The translations under genes and the position numbers were made by a program. Positions 3 through 59,132 of a DNA stretch of 64,000 nt are shown in pieces. Positions within the stretch are counted from its first letter, which is position 1. Every line of letters begins with the position of its first letter. The notes under the pieces were generated by a model that was not told the origin of the DNA, searched no databases, and saw nothing but the letters and a program-made list of their open reading frames with translations. The stretch lies in NCBI RefSeq assembly GCF_035594765.1, contig NC_085845.1, positions 29,506,024 to 29,570,023 on the forward strand, in the 5' to 3' direction. Source of the DNA: Anolis carolinensis. Its lineage: Eukaryota.

Positions 3-971
3 ACGCCGTTCTTTGCAAACTACGGCTTCCATCCACGTTTCTTTCCCCCTGTCATTGAAACTTCAGAAGTTCCCGCAGCAGAAGAATGGCTGCAGGAACT
101 CACAGCGGTACAACAACTTTTGCTCCAGCAACTGGAACAAGCCAAGGAGGACTATAAACGTCACGCGGACAAACATCGCCAGCCGGGCCCCGAAATCAAG
201 GTAGGAGATCGGGTTTTTCTGTCCACTCGCTTTTTGCCCTCCCATCGCCCTTGCCGGAAGTTAGATGCCCGTTTCATTGGTCCCTATCCAGTGGTGGCAC
301 AATTAAACCCCGTGACTTTCAAACTCCAACTTCCGCGTTCAATGCGCATTCACCCAGTGTTTCACCGCTCCCTGCTCCTTCCGGCGGATGGTGTGTGGCC
401 AGATGTAGACCGGCCGGCCCCCGTCCCTATTTTGGTGGATGGGGAGGACGAGTTCGAGGTTCAGGACATTTTGGATTCTCGCTTTCACCGCCGCCGCCTG
501 CAATATCTCATTGACTGGGTGGGTTTTGGCCCTGAGGAACGCTCTTGGGAAGACGCCTCCACAGTCCATGCTCCTGATCTAACCCGTCGCTTTCATCAGA
601 CCTATCCCGCCAAGCCGCGACCTCGCGCCTCGGGGAGAGAGTCCCAGTTTGGGAGGGGCCTTGAGGAGGGGGATAGTGTGATGACTCATGGGCCTTGTAG
701 TCCTGCTCATGACATTGTAATACCTGATGAAGAAGAAAACTTGGGTTTTTTACCTTCCCAGTCAGAACTGGAATCTTCTCAGCCAGATCTTTCCCAGGCA
801 GATCTGGGAACCTTGCACCTGCAAGAAAGTTGTGTCCCAGAAGTATGTCAAACAAACCCTGAGCCTACATCTCCCGTGTTCTCTCGCCATGAGTTTTGTA
901 AACAACAGAGGGGTTTGGAAGCAGCTTCGCGCAGGAGTGCTAGAATAGCAGCTAAGAATGTAGCCAATTAA
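3..971 (+). CDS. Gypsy Pol C-terminus: integrase end, GPY/F (SH3-like) region, chromodomain and LTR-encoded tail
   Basis: Frame is open from base 3 (TPFFANYGFHP). Motifs KLDARFIGPYPV, IHPVFHRSLL and chromodomain FEVQDILDSR...QYLIDWVGFGPEERSWED. Stop TAA at 969-971. Confidence 0.93.
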   Translation, partial: TPFFANYGFHPRFFPPVIETSEVPAAEEWLQELTAVQQLLLQQLEQAKEDYKRHADKHRQPGPEIKVGDRVFLSTRFLPSHRPCRKLDARFIGPYPVVAQLNPVTFKLQLPRSMRIHPVFHRSLLLPADGVWPDVDRPAPVPILVDGEDEFEVQDILDSRFHRRRLQYLIDWVGFGPEERSWEDASTVHAPDLTRRFHQTYPAKPRPRASGRESQFGRGLEEGDSVMTHGPCSPAHDIVIPDEEENLGFLPSQSELESSQPDLSQADLGTLHLQESCVPEVCQTNPEPTSPVFSRHEFCKQQRGLEAASRRSARIAAKNVAN

Positions 972-2211: not shown

Positions 2212-2343
2212 CTGAAGACAGCAAGGCTCAGAGACCAAAGAACTAGTGGTTTCCTTAGTTCAAATTTTGCTCGTTTGTTCATTAGATGCCGACCACCAAA
2301 TATAAAGGCAGCATATAAAGCAGAAAACAGGAAAGATTTTTTC
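2212..2343 (-). CDS. ELOVL6: Elongation of very long chain fatty acids protein 6, internal coding exon (132 bp, phase 2-2)
   Basis: Encodes (W)[43 protein letters not shown](S), nearly identical to vertebrate ELOVL6. Acceptor is a pyrimidine tract ending TTTTTACAG at 2344; donor GTAAG starts at 2211. Confidence 0.97.
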
Positions 2344-2831
2344 CTGTAAAAAAAAGCAAAACAAACAAATGATATGCAGGCATCCTTTATGCTGAAAAAA
2401 ATTCCTTCATCCCTTTTTTGTATGCATGTGCTCGATAAGTACACAAAACTGCTTATATAAATTAGGAACAACTGCACTGACTGGCTTGAATAAGGGCCAC
2501 TTTATTTAACCTATGTCTTATTTAAGTTATTTGGAGCCAAAAGGAGCCTTCCCTTGGTCAAACACCTGAGCCCCAAGAGCAGTCCAATATCAAAGTGGCT
2601 TTCTGTCTGGCCACTTACTGAAAGGTAAACCTAGGATAGTGAGAGTTATACTCCCAGGTCTGCCTCAAGAGTAGATCTCAACCCCAGGACGTATGAAGGC
2701 CATTTCAGAATTGTACTCTACACCAAAAGGGCGCCAAGCTGAACATCCAAGTCTCAAATCTTCCTCTGGTTGCATGCCAAATGGAATCCTGTTTACAAAC
2801 ACCATCCCAGACAAATCATCCAAGTCCCTTA

Positions 2832-4250: not shown

Positions 4251-4919
4251 CAGAAAAAAACTTTATAGGTTTTCGCATAGAAGACAAAACTGTAAAAATT
4301 AATCCACAAGGATATGTCATAACTTAAAGAGAATGTCATTGTGATTTAGATACAAGAATAAAAATATTTCTAGTTCACTCTGCTTTCAGATTAGATCTTA
4401 ACTGGAATCACATAGAAATTCATCTTATAGTTAACACAGCACAAAATTCAAATTACATGTTTCCAAAAAAAAAAAAAAAAGGCACATTTAATACAGATTC
4501 ATGACAAAGGCCAAGACCAGAAATGGAGATAGAAGAAAATAGGTCTGAACAATATAATCCAGTTAGTCAAAATGTCAAATGGATCCAGTATAAGTCTTGA
4601 TGAGTTCTGAAGCTTCATTTTCTATCTCGTTTTTCCCTCTTACATTAAGCATGTGAAGTCCTACAGCTTATTTTGATTTTTAAAAATGTATTTTATATGC
4701 AATGTATGGATAGATAGCTTCCAAAAGATTGGGCATAACTTCAGAAATTAGGTCACACCACAGTGCCTAAATTCTGAAATCCACAATTGTGCTCATTGTT
4801 GTATGAACAAGAGAAATGCAATAAATGTATTCAAAATAAGGCCACAACATTCTGCTGTATTACAGTGTGTTTAACCCGAGCTCACAGAGACAAAATATAT
4901 CCACATTAATTTCTATTAT

Positions 4920-5050
4920 TTGTTGTTGTGTGCCTTTAAGTCATTTCCAACTTATGGTGAACTTACAAGGTGATTTCTTGGCAATATTTGTTCAGGGATT
5001 GTCCTTGCATTCCTCTGAAGCTGAGAATGTATGACTTGCCCAAGGTAAAC
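4920..5050 (-). mobile_element. CORE-like SINE fragment with RTE-type tail
   Basis: TTGTTGTTGTGTGCCTT tail and TGACTTGCCCAAGGT core; related to 24063-24265 and 29920-30140. Confidence 0.6.
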
Positions 5051-5464
5051 CATTAATTTTTATCAGCGTCCATGTAGAATTATTGGCCCCAAATAGCCAA
5101 AAAGAACCTCACACTCATATTGATTAATACATTTCAGATTTTACTCCTGTTTTTTTCTGATTGTATACTGAGTTAAAATAATACCAGCTCCTGGGGTTGG
5201 TTTATTTTAGCCAACCCCAGGAGCTGACAGAAAATATCTTGAGATAAACAAAACATATATGGATCTCTAAATTAAAATCAGAAAGAATAGGAACAAAGTC
5301 TGGGACTTTCGGTCTTGCAGATGAGCCCTGTAAATTGGAAATGACTTGGAGGAACACAACAAAAACAAATATTTAAAATGTGTTGTCGAAGGCTTTCATG
5401 GCCAGGATCACAGGGTTGTTGTATGTCTTTCGGGCTGTGTGGCCATGTTCCAGAAGCATTCTCT

Positions 5465-5505
5465 CCTGACGTTTCGCCCACATCAATGGCAGGCATCCTC
5501 AGAGG
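5465..5505 (-). ncRNA. Minimal type I hammerhead ribozyme (sense to ELOVL6)
   Basis: Reverse-complement copy of the same motif with an intact core. Confidence 0.8.
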
Positions 5506-5532
5506 TTGTGAGGTAACCTCACAACCTCACAA

Positions 5533-5573
5533 CCTCTGAGGATGCCTGCCATAGATGTGGGCGAAACGTCAGG
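5533..5573 (+). ncRNA. Minimal type I hammerhead ribozyme
   Basis: CCT-CTGAGGA-stem II (GCCTGC/GTGGGC with GU pairs)-GAAA-CG-TC-AGG. Palindromic ACGT replaces stem III; predicted cleavage after C5570. Confidence 0.8.
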
Positions 5574-6062
5574 AGAGAATGCTTCTGGAACATGGCCACA
5601 CAGCCCGAAAGACATACAACAACCCCAAATATTTAAAATGCTTGTGTAACTATCTGTATATTCATCTCTGTATATTAAATTCAAAAGATTATCAAAACTT
5701 TAAAAACCCCAAACAAAACTGCCAGATATGCAAAGGTTTCAGATAAAAGAAGGAATAAATCCAAAATCCCATTCTCTAATTCATCATAACCAAAATACAT
5801 TTATTTCAGAAAAATGCATCTGTTATTCCTGACATGACATTTATATTCAAGCTACTTTAAGTAGGTCAGAAACTATATTTATATATATTAGGTCACTTCA
5901 CTGCTTTTTAATTAGCTCCTTGTTTCTGACTTTTAAAGGTCACAAATTATCTATATTATCTCCATACGATATTTCCAAAAACTTGAAATAATCTCATGTT
6001 ACTGCCATATTGGCCTGACATAATCTGTGCAGGAATTCTCACTTCACCTCCAAGACATTTTA

Positions 6063-12786: not shown

Positions 12787-12920
12787 CAAGCATAGGCAAA
12801 CTTGGGTCCTCCAGGTATTTTGGACTTCAACTCCCACAATTCCTAACAGCCTACCAGCTGTTAGGAATTATGGGAGTTGAAGTCCAAAACACCTGGAAGG
12901 CTCAAGATTGCCTATGTCTG
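12787..12920. mobile_element. Palindromic hAT MITE
   Basis: Inverted repeat along the whole element; 8-bp TSD GGATAGAC/AGATAGAC. Confidence 0.85.
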
Positions 12921-18776: not shown

Positions 18777-18978
18777 GGGTGCATCTACACTGTACAATTA
18801 ATGTAGGTTGACACAACTTTAACTGCCATAGAATATTAGGATTTGTAGCTTTGTGGGGCATCAGTACATTTTAGTAGAGATGGCTAAAGACCTTATAAAA
18901 CTACAGCTCCCATTAGCATTAAACCATGGCAGTTAAAGTGGTGTCAAACTGCATTAATTCTACAGTGTAAATGCACTG
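18777..18978. mobile_element. PIF/Harbinger-like MITE
   Basis: GTGCATCTACACTGTA / TACAGTGTAAATGCAC ends and internal inverted segments. Confidence 0.7.
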
Positions 18979-30709: not shown

Positions 30710-31838
30710 CACATTATACACTTAATTATAATTTCTTTTAAAAGGAGAACTAAGCACAAAGTGTGGGAAGATAGGGATCGACAAATAGAGGTCGAATCCC
30801 AATGAACTCCAGCAGGCCCTTGAATCACATCCACATGCAGTGAGGAGGCTGCTCTTTGCTATAGTACTGTGTAGTATCTCTCCACCAAAAAACCCTATGA
30901 GCATAACCTGGAACCAATTGGCTGAATTCAAAACGATTTTGCATAGTTGCTGCCCAGAAGGGATTCCTCCCTCCCTCTCCTCATAATGGTAATCTAATGC
31001 TCATGGGATTTTTAAGATAACTAAAATAAGCGTTGTTGATATACACACAGCTGCAGGCATTCCTTGAACTTTGTTTCCTCCAATGCACACCCCCATTTAG
31101 CTGGATGTTTTTTCTTCATCTCCTCTTTTAGAGGCTGGCCTGTCAGTGTTCCAGAGAAGTGAAAAACACTGACCTTTATCTAAAGAGCAATCTTTAATGA
31201 CATGCTCATGGTGCAGGCATTTGGGGAGAATTCAGCTTATTTCCAGACATTGTTTATTATAGTACATATTAATGTGCTGTATTTCTTCTATGTATGACCT
31301 TTTTTTTGGAAACCAATTTCAGCACCCTGGATAGTTCTTACAGACCATGTATATATAACTCCTGCAGTACTCAATACAAATTCACACAACCTCTTCTTCA
31401 AAATACATTGCAGTAGTTGCCTTGCACAACCCGGTCTAATTTTGATGCAAAAGACTGCTTTAGAGTGCAATTCTTTGCATGTTTATGCAGAAGTTACATT
31501 ACATTACATTACACATGGATTGTTCAATTAAGGAGGACAAGACCTTGAATATGCAAGACTGAGATGGATTATTGATGAACATAGCTGTCAGAGGTCTCTC
31601 ATTCATAGAGTTGCTAACTATGTATTTAACTTGATTACATGTGACAACAAATGTTCAGAAGTTCAGTTGGGGCTTATTCTTATGTATAGAATACCCCCCC
31701 CCCCAATCCATGGTTTCTGCATCTAGATATCCAATATACTGTGCTTTGAAAAAAAATTTTTACAAAAGGAAAACTTTGATTTTGCCATTTTATATACACC
31801 TACATATATCTAGGTATATATACACCTACATTATACAC

Positions 31839-32244
31839 CAGTGATTCTCCACCTGTGGGTCCCCAGATGTTTTGGCCTTCAACTCCCAAAAATTCTAACA
31901 GCTGGTGAACTGGCTGAGATTTCTGAGAGTTGTAGGTCAAAACACCTGGCGACCCACAGGTGGAGAACAACTGATTTAGGCCATCCTTTAGAAACCTTTC
32001 TTGATGATCCGTCTTTATATGAACCAGACCACACTCATATACAAATTCTATTCTCTTAAGAGTTGGAATTTCTGTCTCTACCTGGAAGATCTGTCACCCC
32101 ATCATGCCACACTGAACCAATTCTGAGTAGTATTATTCATTGTTTCCTCTCTTGAAAAATTAAGGATTTTGGCATATGCAGTGGCTGAGATTTCTGGGAG
32201 TTGTAGATCAAAACACCTGGGGATCCACAGGTTGAGAACCACCA
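31839..32244. mobile_element. hAT MITE, about 200 bp of unrelated DNA and a second MITE half, all inside a Tigger-like element (about 31690-32362)
   Basis: Palindromic MITE at 31839-31973, second right arm at about 32183-32244, outer flanks TTATACAC/ATATACAT. Confidence 0.65.
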
Positions 32245-34335: not shown

Positions 34336-34462
34336 TGTGTTGTCGAAGGCTTTCATGGCCGGGATCACAGGGTTGTTGTATGTCTTTTGGGCTGTGTGGC
34401 CATGTTCCAGAAGTATTCTCTCCTGACGTTTCGCCCACATCTATGGCAGGCATCCTCAGAGG
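34336..34462 (-). mobile_element. Penelope-like element 3' end (single arm) with TSD
   Basis: Nearly identical to 5381-5510; TTGTGAATA at 34327-34335 and 34463-34471. Confidence 0.85.
34422..34462 (-). ncRNA. Minimal type I hammerhead ribozyme (sense to ELOVL6)
   Basis: Minus strand CCT-CTGAGGA-TGCCTGCCATAGATGTGGGC-GAAA-CGTC-AGG. Confidence 0.8.
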
Positions 34463-37400
34463 TTGTGAATAAATAGTTTTGTACTAGTGAATTTTCAATT
34501 TTTACCCCCTGCATATTTTTTAAAATTAATTTGGTTTTGCTTCTATATGAAGTGGGCTATATGACATGCTTACAAAATGAAGTAGCTGATCTAGGATACC
34601 AACAATAGTCATCAACATCATCATGTTCTGATGATAATATCTCATAATGTATTATATATCCATCCACTGAGATTCATAGAGTTCAACAAGGAGAATTAGC
34701 AATTAGAACTGGACCACTGTGGAGTTTAGGGATTAATCTGCCATGGTGACAGCCATATTAGAGGGCCTGAATCAATAAGGAAAGTAGTGTACTTGAGCAC
34801 TTGCGATGCCAGCAGTACGCAATGAACTGCTGTGCCTTCCTGTCTCCATTCCACTTTGCTTAATTTTGTCTCTCTCCCAGTTGATCCTGCTGGCCACCTA
34901 CACACAACCTCAACAACCATAATCAGTGAACATGATCAAGTCTTCCACTGGAATTCCTTTCCACATCTCACCACCTGACTGCATCTATGTGTGGGTTCTC
35001 TAACCATAAGAAACTAATGTGGCAGAGCCCAACCTTCTTAATCTATCTCATAAACCCTAGGTTATTTGTAAGGCTAGAGTTCCTGTGGGCAGTCAGCAAT
35101 TTTCCACATTCCAGTTCTTACACCTACTTACTTGTAAACAATGCTGTTAGCGTCCCTTCCTGGTACTTGGTATGCTGCAAATGTCAGCATGGTATGTTAT
35201 ACTGCTGACAGAAACAACCTGAACATAGGTCACTCATGTGAAATAACCTATTTCTTCCCAAACAAACCCTTCCTCTCAGTATATTGCTACTTCTTTTGCC
35301 TTTGCCTTTGGGATCAGAATACTGTTTACCCTCAACTTTCATGGATTTCACATTCATGATTTTGGTTGTTTGCAAGTTTGTAGCTGTTGTCCAGCTATCT
35401 CAAACTCGTCCTCCTCCATCTTCTGTCCTGGCAACAGCACCACCCACAACTCTCTTTCTCACCTTGGGAACACAACACAACACCCCTGCCATATTTTGCA
35501 AAGCCTTTCCACCTTATTCTACACTTAAGATGATGTCAGAAGGAGAAGCCTTCCACATGGACATTCCTCTTTGTAGGCAATGCTTCGTGATTCCCTCAAT
35601 TCTAAGGAACAGAGCTATTGATTTCCATGGAAACATTGTTCAAAAAGATGCTTAAACCTATTGAAGGAAATAACTTCATCTCCAGAAATGAAGGTTTATG
35701 AAGTTCCTCTGCTTCCCTTCATATTGAAGTCGATGTTAGCAGAAGCACTACAAATCCACATGCACTTTGGGATAGTGCTTCGCGATCCCTCTGCTACTAC
35801 ATTCCATGTGCAAAAGCTTTTTTTGGGACAGTGCTTCCATGTAAGCCAATAGCTCTGTTCCCCGTAGATGGCATGATCACAAAACACTGTCCAAAAAAGT
35901 TATTGTGCACATGGAAGGTTTCTGTTAACACTGGTTTTGGTTTGGAGGGAAGAAGAGGGGCTTTACAAATCTGGCACCGGCATCATGAAGTGTAAGGGCA
36001 GGAAAGAGAGGTATGACTTGTACTGTTGGCAGGAAAGGAATGCATTTTTGGAAGGGGATTCATGATACTTGTAGCTTTTCCACTTTCAATGGGATTTGTA
36101 CCCCTAAACCTCACAAACACTAAGGGTCAGCTATGATTACATCTATCCCACACTACGTATTATAATTATGATTCTTTGATTCCATTCTAAGATTTCTCCT
36201 ATAATTTATGTACTGTAAATATAAACTATATTTATTCTACATTATGTTGCCCATTGCTGAGCTGACTAGCTGCTGGTGTAGTTTCCAGGCACACAGGTTT
36301 GCATTCCACTTTAGGAACAGAATAATTACACTTCTGTTAATAATTTAATAAACAAGCAAACACAAATTATCTGATCTGTTACCCCAGCCAGCCTCTTTCT
36401 GTTCCTCTCTGCCTGTGAGCAAAGTGGGGAACTATTGCTATCCCTGCTCCTGGGCATCAAATTTGGCCTGCCTCTTTGGGACCAGAATATAATTATATAA
36501 TAGAAGAACCCAAAGTAAAAACCAAACAAGCCAGTTACCAGCCTGCTGGCCTCCTGTTCAAGCAAAGGAAACAAATTCCTGGTATAAGTACCACCCAGAG
36601 CATCAGAGCTGATGACTTTGCCCCCATGTTTGAAAGCAATTACCGGTATATATATCTCATATTAACAATATAATAATCAACAACATCCATCACCAATGAA
36701 CTTACTGGCCTTATCTGCCTCCTCTTCCTCCTTTCAGTTCATAATTATTGTATGTACCCTAGAATCATAATTTGGTTACCAAACAATTGACTAACCTTCC
36801 AACCTTACATGGCCTTTGCCTGTGGCAGACTCTTTGGGAAAAGATACATCTAGTACTGCTGTGAAAATACATGTGTGTAAAGGAGGAACGGGAGCTCTTG
36901 CCTGCTTCTAGCCTGGCTCTCAGCTATGTCTGTGATGAACTTTTCCTTTCCTTTTGGAAGTGCTGAACATGAAAACAGAATTTTTCCTGCCTATCTTCTG
37001 TTTCAGTGAGCAAACAAAATGCCTTATGGTATATCCCGTCTCCCCCTTCTCAAAAAATCAACTCATAAACCTCCTGAGTTACTCATCATTCATATACTGA
37101 TTGAAGGTGTTTCATGACTGGAGCACTAATTCTTGAATCATTGCTGCTTTTGCAAACTATTGTGTCTTCAGTCCCTTCAGTCCCTTTTACATTCAAGCCC
37201 CCCTCATCCCAACACCAGCAGGAAGTTACATAGACAGTCATCATGGGACTCTGCCCTGCCACAGGGCACTAATGTACCCCTTTGATGTTCCCTACTGAGA
37301 AGCAAGAGAAACCAGACAGGACCTCCTGAGATGTATTCTTGTCATAACCTGGAGGGGAAGCTTGGAAAGACTTTTCAAGCCATAATGTTGTGACATCCTC

Positions 37401-58854: not shown

Positions 58855-59132
58855 AGTAGTTCCCAACTTTTGGTCCTCCAAGTGTTTTGCATTTCAGATC
58901 CTGCAATTCCTAACAGCTGGTAAGCTGTCTGGGATTTCTGGAAGTCAAAGTCCAAAACAACTGGAGGAACAAAGGTTGTGCATGACAAAGACATCATCTA
59001 GGACAGTGATTCCTGAACTCTGGGCCTTCGTGTGTTCCAAATTTGACCACCTCAGCTTCCTTGGCCTATGATCAGGCATTCTGGAAGCTAAAGTCCAAAA
59101 CACTTGGAAGTCCAGTGTTTGAGGAAATACTG
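58855..59132. mobile_element. Two adjacent palindromic hAT MITEs (about 58855-58987 and 59004-59132)
   Basis: CAGT(A/G)(G/A)TTCC termini; the second has 8-bp TSD ATCTAGGA/CTCTAGGA. Confidence 0.7.

What the first reader, a model, noticed from the sequence alone, without database searches (positions are those of the whole stretch)
5366..5640. Palindromic mini-Penelope with a hammerhead on each strand
Seen: two inverted arms of about 110-130 bp, a short ACAACCTC duplication at the axis, one 15-bp TSD around the whole unit, and an intact CUGAGGA...GAAACGUC core in each arm. Known: Penelope-like elements form inverted terminal structures and carry minimal hammerheads thought to act as dimers through a palindromic stem III. 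Inference: one insertion event made a cassette that gives ribozyme-containing RNA in either direction. In ELOVL6 pre-mRNA it should fold into a long duplex that masks the ribozyme and could be an ADAR or Dicer substrate.
Basis: partly seen in the sequence, partly recalled or inferred. Interest (0 to 1): 0.7.

Follow-up and report, generated by a model that had tools for sequence, protein, structure and literature searches.

The report
Twin-primed lizard Penelope palindrome stub
This 245-base mirror-image insert in a lizard gene's intron is one of more than 1,300 similar stubs of a known jumping gene (Poseidon); it was likely built when both cut DNA strands copied the front of the element's RNA, and its two ribozyme motifs are predicted to be locked in a long hairpin and so likely silent.

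Summary
In detail: an exact 15-bp TSD, a 134-nt and a 102-nt arm head to head (one mismatch), an 8-nt duplication at the axis, an intact minimal hammerhead core in each arm, inside an ELOVL6 intron. The arms are the -18..+116 and -18..+84 stretches of Poseidon_Ac (PAc), the anole Penelope-like element studied in vitro (PMC11167929). It is the shortest form of the known 'inverted pLTR plus tail' layout, not a special cassette: 1,316 such junctions occur in the genome. In 50 sampled palindromes, 47 have one long and one short arm and none has two alike; arms share subfamily letters (225 of 231 sites); in 8 of 47 each arm holds sequence the other lacks. This favours two cDNAs, primed at the two target nicks from the element's two internal start sites and joined at their 3' ends, over fold-back. 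The ribozymes would cost 75-82 kcal/mol to form. Editing and small RNAs could not be tested. The scan reached this reading before on other DNA, also in this genome.

The parts
5366..5380 (+). Left copy of the 15-bp target-site duplication; its last four bases match the element's +117..+120 on the minus strand (4-nt microhomology at the long-arm junction)
   Evidence: microhomology read by eye against the template printed in PMC11167929
5381..5412 (-). 32-nt 'tail' (+85..+116 of PAc, counted from the ORF's ATG), present on this arm only; forms the 3' side of a stem closing an AC-rich loop
5381..5515 (-). Long arm: PAc -19..+116; two changes from the majority of 50 loci (+12, +93)
5465..5505 (-). 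Minimal type I hammerhead in ELOVL6 sense; predicted cut between 5468 and 5467; one private change in loop II (5485)
5516..5523 (+). Extra 8-nt copy (ACCTCACA) at the start of the short arm; likely slip-back of the cDNA 3' end during junction formation
5524..5625 (+). Short arm: PAc -18..+84; no change from the majority of 50 loci in 102 nt
5533..5573 (+). Minimal type I hammerhead antisense to ELOVL6: stem I 5533-5535/5571-5573, CUGAGGA 5536-5542, stem II 5544-5549/5557-5562, GAAAC-GUC 5563-5570, predicted cut after 5570
   Evidence: cut 26 nt after the start codon as in PMC11167929
5626..5640 (+). Right copy of the 15-bp target-site duplication
2214..2345 (-). ELOVL6 coding exon (residues 31-73) with its splice acceptor; the insert lies in the intron upstream of it

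Best explanation
This is a single insertion of the anole Penelope-like element Poseidon (PAc) in its shortest inverted form, likely made by twin priming, and its hammerheads are predicted to be inactive passengers. Steps: (1) the PAc endonuclease nicks both strands of an AT-rich site 15 bp apart (TSD shown; two-strand nicking published in vitro). (2) Each freed 3' end primes reverse transcription inside the element's RNA, one at about +116/+118 and the other at +84 (arm ends shown; two internal starts with the tail between them published; their pairing with the two nicks inferred). (3) Both cDNAs come from one RNA or from RNAs of one source locus (inferred from shared subfamily letters); on one RNA, the +84 cDNA would be made first and be displaced by the +118 cDNA. 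(4) Both stop near -19, likely the RNA's 5' end, 31 nt behind a TATA-like box (stop shown; start site inferred). (5) Here the short arm's end slipped back 8 nt on a direct repeat and was re-extended (inferred). (6) The two 3' ends pair through 1-2 bases and repair fills in the palindrome (inferred). In ELOVL6 pre-mRNA the arms would form a 102-bp duplex that prevents the ribozyme fold (computed); it is likely spliced out without effect.
For: Identity: by eye both arms match the PAc template printed in PMC11167929, apart from +12 and +93 in the long arm. Abundance: 42,657 exact copies of a 17-mer; 1,316 head-to-head junctions with an axis of at most 30 nt, control 0. Of the first 50 such junctions on C1: 47 have one long (+111..118) and one short (+79..95) arm, 3 have a broken or cut partner, 0 have two long or two short arms, against about 49% mixed if starts were independent; 45 of 50 show a TSD of 7-16 bp, 38 of them 11-16; 35 distinct axes in 50. 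Arms agree at 225 of 231 subfamily-diagnostic sites (2.6% discordant; background 2.0%; permuted pairs 37%, 0 of 5000 as low). Not nested: the short arm reaches 3 or more bases further 5' in 8 of 47, the long arm in 9 of 47, so in 8 each arm has sequence the other lacks; these 8 are not older than the 9. 17 of 51 axes (the 50 plus this one) have no spacer at all, which a self-priming hairpin cannot give. 81 of 100 arm 5' ends lie at -18..-24; TATATATTAA at -51 and CCATACC with A at -20 in L002. The 8-nt duplication occurs 30 times genome-wide, 21 at a palindrome axis against 21 of 95 ordinary copies (p 3e-6), on long and on short arms. Telomere repeats abut the -17..-22 end in 7 places, 5 at an axis, a sign of free cDNA ends. 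Both nicks have the same A-rich context at -4..-2 (22-29 of 40 loci). Ribozyme masking.
Against: This locus alone is nested apart from the duplication, so it does not by itself exclude fold-back. Exceptions to one-long-one-short exist outside the 50: L170 (+85/+86), L227 (+84/+88), L160 (+118/+116, arms 178 nt apart). The pattern only admits arms reaching -12 and short axes, which sharpens the 5'-end peak; among 90 unselected copies only 27 end at -12..-26 and the rest trail to -162. The test for a cap-derived G at -21 was inconclusive: 61 G to 39 A in 100 rows, but 31 to 34 once rows with G at -22 are dropped (p 0.16), and the control was swamped by a subfamily variant. No RNA 5'-end data. 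Spacer inversion after insertion or gene conversion between arms could mimic non-nesting and concordance. Near twins exist: L121 differs from this insert at 2 bases and has the same axis; L204 and L205 share a telomere-bearing axis with different flanks. One RNA versus two from one locus is not resolved.
Confidence: 0.7

Rival explanations
1. Twin priming, but from two RNA molecules held by a PAc protein dimer, perhaps paired through the hammerhead's palindromic ACGU.
For: PAc is predicted to be a dimer and extends both strands (PMC11167929); minimal hammerheads are built to pair two RNAs (PMC4209133). RNAs from one active locus would also give concordant arms. L061 has discordant arms at +40 with only 2 differences in all.
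Against: Needs a separate reason why the two RNAs use different start sites in 47 of 47 intact cases; discordance at diagnostic sites is no higher than background (2.6% vs 2.0%).
Confidence: 0.12
2. Fold-back or self-priming: one cDNA (or an antisense template) turns on itself and copies its own strand; the second end is then trimmed or cut at the tail. This is the published proposal.
For: Proposed for rotifer PLEs from palindromes at inverted junctions (PMC3846280 passages); tail ascribed to endonuclease resolution (PMC8557442 passages). A natural 5-bp hairpin CCUCA/UGAGG sits at -17..-1 and several loci join exactly there (L008, L105, L134, L159, L162, L197). Explains concordant arms.
Against: Copying one strand makes nested arms, yet 8 of 47 are not nested and both polarities are about equal; the hairpin-joined class also comes in both polarities (L159, L105 against L162, L197); 17 of 51 axes have no loop; short arms end at a site that single copies also use (38 of 90 end at +82..+89).
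Confidence: 0.1
3. The palindrome is itself a mobile mini-element that is copied as a unit.
For: L121 is a near twin with the same duplicated axis and the same +93 change; L204 and L205 share a complex axis.
Against: 35 distinct axes in 50, repeats only among the simplest; +93 T is a CpG change found in 10 of 47 long arms; simple duplicated axes recur independently; L204 and L205 have opposite long/short polarity.
Confidence: 0.05
4. The insert has a function in ELOVL6 RNA: a two-way ribozyme, or a hairpin that is edited or diced and regulates the gene.
For: Both cores are intact; a 102-bp duplex with one mismatch is a fit substrate for ADAR or Dicer by general knowledge; the filled site is seen in 5 of 6 whole-genome runs laid.
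Against: Intact cores are expected in so young a copy (0 and 2 changes; both cores intact in 30 of 50 peers); the active fold costs 75-82 kcal/mol; the PAc hammerhead needed PAc protein to cut; one of thousands of like hairpins.
Confidence: 0.03

Closest known systems
Poseidon_Ac / PAc, Penelope-like element of Anolis carolinensis (Frangieh et al. 2024, PMC11167929; main text parts 1-3 of 4 read, two supplement files gave only stray figure text)
   Same: [quoted passage not shown]
   Different: No ORF beyond codon 39 and no upstream pLTR; two copies head to head. The parts of the paper read do not discuss inverted insertions.
Inverted-pLTR insertion units of endonuclease-bearing PLEs (Adineta Pen2a, PMC3846280 passages; overview in PMC8557442 passages; D. 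virilis Penelope, PMC2377424 passages)
   Same: Head-to-head inverted copy, 30-40-bp tail at one end only, one TSD around the unit, palindrome at the junction, TATA- and Inr-like motifs in the pLTR.
   Different: Smallest form, both arms ending at about the same 5' point; those papers explain the inversion by self-priming or endonuclease resolution, which the non-nested arms here do not fit.
Minimal PLE hammerheads (Cervera and de la Pena 2014, PMC4209133; parts 1-2 of 4 read)
   Same: Type I core, no helix III, palindromic 15.2-16.2 positions, extra base before stem II, G10.1-C11.1 pair; the paper also notes paired motifs 100-700 bp apart on opposite strands in Schistosoma.
   Different: Opposite-strand pairs cannot form the tandem dimer in cis; stem I is only 3 bp.
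Twin priming of LINE-1 (recalled; no call read it)
   Same: Both target strands prime cDNA on the same RNA; inverted join by microhomology; one TSD.
   Different: In L1 the two cDNAs cover different parts of the RNA and the second start is variable; here both cover the same part and both starts are fixed.

Membership tests
Poseidon_Ac (PAc) Penelope-like element | Sequence identity to the pLTR-ORF junction | tested here: met
   By eye against the template printed in PMC11167929: 102 of 102 and 132 of 134 bases; not computed, as the paper's sequence was not loaded
Poseidon_Ac (PAc) Penelope-like element | RT and GIY-YIG ORF | tested here: not met
   Only the first 39 codons are present: a non-coding stub of the element
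Inverted-pLTR PLE insertion | Head-to-head inverted copy with one TSD around the unit | tested here: met
Inverted-pLTR PLE insertion | 30-40-bp tail at one end only | tested here: met
   32 nt, 5381-5412; 47 of 50 peers
Inverted-pLTR PLE insertion | Empty site in another individual | tested here: inconclusive
   Filled junction contigs in 5 of 6 whole-genome runs; in X15 a 459-nt contig is laid only from 5642 with 100 letters unplaced, and the joint table is cut
Minimal type I hammerhead of PLEs | Core CUGANGA, GAAA, NUH; stems I and II; palindromic stem III remnant | tested here: met
   Rfam models do not score it
Minimal type I hammerhead of PLEs | Self-cleavage | not testable with these tools
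   Published for PAc only with protein; here predicted masked
Non-autonomous element mobile as a unit (MITE- or retrozyme-like) | Copies share one internal junction | tested here: not met
   35 distinct axes in 50; two look-alike pairs remain
microRNA or endogenous siRNA hairpin | Processed small RNAs or editing | not testable with these tools
   Only contigs available; Rfam microRNA hits below gathering score

The most novel reading that the evidence does not exclude
These palindromes record how Penelope-like elements build their inverted ends: the two internal reverse-transcription starts mapped in vitro for PAc are each assigned to one strand of the target, one RNA is copied twice, both copies run off its 5' end (the transcription start near -20, or less often the hammerhead cut at +30), and the free ends, sometimes re-extended by telomerase-like slip-back or capped with telomere repeats, are joined. 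Starts at +30 being 1.9 times those at +28 and +33 would then be a trace of ribozyme cleavage in the germ line.
Probability: 0.5. Interest if true: 0.62.

Novelty: new member of a known kind. Interest (0 to 1): 0.36.

Why it matters
The locus is ordinary: one young stub among thousands, with a described element, hammerhead and layout. The family matters more. How PLEs form inverted pLTRs and one-sided tails is called unresolved in the papers read (PMC3846280, PMC8557442), and this is the one PLE with a purified active protein, so the twin-priming model can be tested with an existing assay. Seven paper searches listed no paper stating this model for PLEs, judged from titles, abstract starts and the six papers opened; most subscription journals are outside that library. 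The count also shows that this genome holds at least 1,316 near-perfect 100-bp hairpins of one sequence, a likely source of double-stranded RNA against the element.

Tried and rejected
Rfam: no hammerhead match; microRNA hits are hairpin artefacts below threshold. Expression, editing, small RNAs: no RNA holder listed, all 24 runs are contigs; two guessed-RNA runs cover only parts of the unique flanks and no A>G or T>C row was listed, which is no evidence either way. Empty allele: not shown; X15 is suggestive, but its depth bins do not fit a simple empty contig cleanly and both lay calls were used. Cap-derived G: inconclusive. Independent insertion of the two arms: rejected, one TSD around the unit and none at the axis. 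Assembly artefact: rejected, junction contigs into unique flanks in five other runs. Post-insertion slippage as source of the 8-nt duplication: unlikely, only 4 of 30 lie inside longer copies. Look-up of earlier findings by sequence gave nothing. The 2026 retrozyme preprint (10.64898/2026.07.22.740005) was searched for six terms only and has no passage on inverted or palindromic forms. Supplementary figures S1-S2 and the GenBank file of PMC11167929 could not be seen; S2 shows genomic coverage of PAc copies and may already display the -19 and +84 boundaries.

Full report
Observation. The structure is as described. A 15-bp direct repeat bounds the unit at 5366-5380 and 5626-5640, is exact and occurs nowhere else in the window. 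Between lie a 134-nt arm on the minus strand (5381-5514), nine bases, and a 102-nt arm on the plus strand (5524-5625); the shared 102 nt differ at one base. Eight of the nine central bases repeat the start of the short arm. Each arm has an unchanged minimal hammerhead core. The region folds as one hairpin, z -27. The host is ELOVL6 on the minus strand; the insert lies in an intron of about 70 kb, 3.0 kb before the acceptor at 2345.

Identity. Read by eye against the template printed in PMC11167929 (main text parts 1-3 of 4 read), the arms are positions -18..+116 and -18..+84 of Poseidon_Ac, counted from the ORF's ATG. That paper reports that purified PAc nicks and extends both strands of AT-rich DNA, starts reverse transcription at two adjacent internal sites (chiefly +111..118) with the genomic 'tail' between them, is predicted to be a dimer, and that its hammerhead cuts only when protein is added and is not needed for insertion. 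That the second site is +84 is my inference from genomic ends; the figure could not be seen. An inverted copy, a one-sided 30-40-bp tail and one TSD are called the typical Penelope structure (PMC3846280 and PMC8557442, passages). The copy is young: 0 and 2 changes from the majority of 50 peers.

How common. A 17-mer at the hammerhead's start has 42,657 exact copies; 1,316 places have two of them head to head within 30 nt, control 0. Among the first 100 copies listed I examined 90; I left out 5 arms already held as palindromes and 5 extra units of two tandem arrays. 16 of the 90 (21 of 95 with the five arms added back) have an inverted partner within 35 nt. A second, single copy lies in this window at 34338-34468.

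Anatomy of the palindromes. I took the first 50 places and aligned both arms (part of the output was cut, the tallies come). 47 of 50 have one arm ending at +111..118 and one at +79..95, 3 have a broken or cut partner, none has two alike; single copies use long and short ends about equally (34 and 47 of 90), so independent choice would give about half mixed. 45 of 50 show a TSD. Arms agree at 225 of 231 subfamily-diagnostic sites, at background level and far from permuted pairs. 81 of 100 arm 5' ends lie at -18..-24, and 17 of 51 axes have no spacer. In 8 of 47 the short arm reaches at least 3 bases further 5' than the long arm, in 9 the reverse, in 30 they are within 2. In those 8 each arm has sequence the other lacks, which copying one strand back on itself cannot give; they are not older than the nested ones, so later spacer flipping is not the obvious cause. 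Both nicks share an A-rich context (40 loci with a called TSD, of 48 tried). Against the rule: L170, L227 and L160 have two alike ends.

The axis. The 8-nt duplication occurs 30 times in the genome; 21 are at a palindrome axis, 5 at a plain 5' junction, 4 inside longer copies, an enrichment over 21 of 95 (p 3e-6). It sits on long arms in 9 and on short arms in 12, as here. The template has ACCTC at -18 and again at -10, so a cDNA ending at -18 can slip back and re-copy eight bases (inference). Seven copies carry telomere repeats right at the 5' end, five at an axis (only this polarity was searched). Both point to free cDNA 3' ends near -18 on either arm. A TATA-like box at -51 and an initiator-like CCATACC at -20 (motif consensus recalled) suggest that this is the RNA's start, but the peak is only about fourfold over a trailing distribution in unselected copies (27 of 90 in 15 nt), the cap-G test failed to decide, and D. 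virilis Penelope has a TATA-less internal promoter (PMC2377424 passages).

Mechanism. Two nicks 15 bp apart each prime a cDNA, one at +116/118 (here with 4 nt of microhomology, by eye) and one at +84, on one RNA or on RNAs of one source; both run to about -19 and are joined by 1-2 bases. On a single RNA the order +84 first, then +118 with strand displacement, would explain why each site is used once. Shown: the layout and the family statistics. Published: two-strand nicking and two starts. Inferred: the pairing, the single RNA, run-off and joining.

The ribozymes. Forcing the active fold costs 75 kcal/mol on the plus strand and 82 on the ELOVL6 strand, against 10 and 8 in lone arms. On either strand the antisense arm is made first. 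With the published need for protein, cleavage of the host RNA is unlikely. 30 of 50 peers also keep both cores, so intactness reflects youth. Following a lead from earlier findings I counted copies that begin at the predicted cut: 195 at +30 against 107 at +28 and 102 at +33 (p<1e-6), and among 30 of those loci four palindromes have both arms beginning at +30 (L212, L225/L226, L228, L234/L235). This is a modest hint of cleaved templates; only two control positions were tried, microhomology could bias it, several of the 30 loci are mutated longer copies or tandem units, and PMC11167929 found no RNA-seq reads ending at the cut.

Population data. Six whole-genome runs (one of them, X12, labelled RNA by guess but of genome size) and two smaller guessed-RNA runs were laid, 8 of 24 listed. 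X8, X9, X12, X14 and X16 have a contig from inside the right arm into the unique flank, four of them also on the left; X15 has neither listed and may lack the insert, which could not be shown. Editing and small RNAs were not testable.

Earlier notes. My reading was written down before any was shown. The scan had reached the same reading in other genomes and at other places in this one; these are unchecked AI notes and add no evidence.

Verdict. Real, a new member of a known kind, interest 0.36. The locus is ordinary; the family statistics give a testable model for an open question on PLE insertion in the one element with a working in vitro system.

Noticed in passing
L201-L207 (e.g. G000:C1:28087, C1:3014580, C4:474832, C6:3369457): Two or three telomere repeats sit directly at the element's 5' junction, G-rich strand continuing the cDNA 3' end; 5 of 7 lie within 3.4 Mb of a large contig's start.
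   Followed up: partly
L204 and L205 (C4:474832 and C4:1129431): Same telomere-bearing axis, different flanks, opposite long/short polarity: possible re-copying of a palindrome.
   Followed up: partly
L121 (C3:69305561): Near twin of this insert: 2 differences, same duplicated axis and polarity, its own shorter TSD.
   Followed up: partly
L212, L225/L226, L228, L234/L235: Shorter palindromes whose two arms both begin exactly at the predicted hammerhead cut (+30).
   Followed up: partly
L003 (C16:252515 region), L007, L230-L232: Head-to-tail arrays of the short unit: 135-nt units (-18..+117) four times in L003 and twice in L007; 66-nt units (+30..+95) in L230-L232. Such arrays could give the tandem hammerhead dimers that the palindrome cannot.
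   Followed up: no
window 4914-4954 and 5331-5371: A 41-nt, 83% inverted pair of another repeat's 3' end (resembles a squamate SINE or BovB-type tail; name recalled, not tested); the Penelope insert landed at the end of the right one. L210 and L219 show the same kind of tail fused to a copy starting at +30, with identical 60-nt upstream sequence.
   Followed up: no
window 34338-34468 (-): A second, single PAc stub (-15..+118) in the same intron, in ELOVL6 sense, with an intact core and no inverted partner; a better candidate for an unmasked hammerhead.
   Followed up: no
window 12791-12916, 18779-18976, 31834-31978, 35606-35861, 58871-59114: Five further short inverted-repeat elements in the same intron, probably small DNA-transposon remnants.
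   Followed up: no
window 5185-5226: Perfect 16-bp inverted repeat with a 10-nt spacer, unexplained.
   Followed up: no
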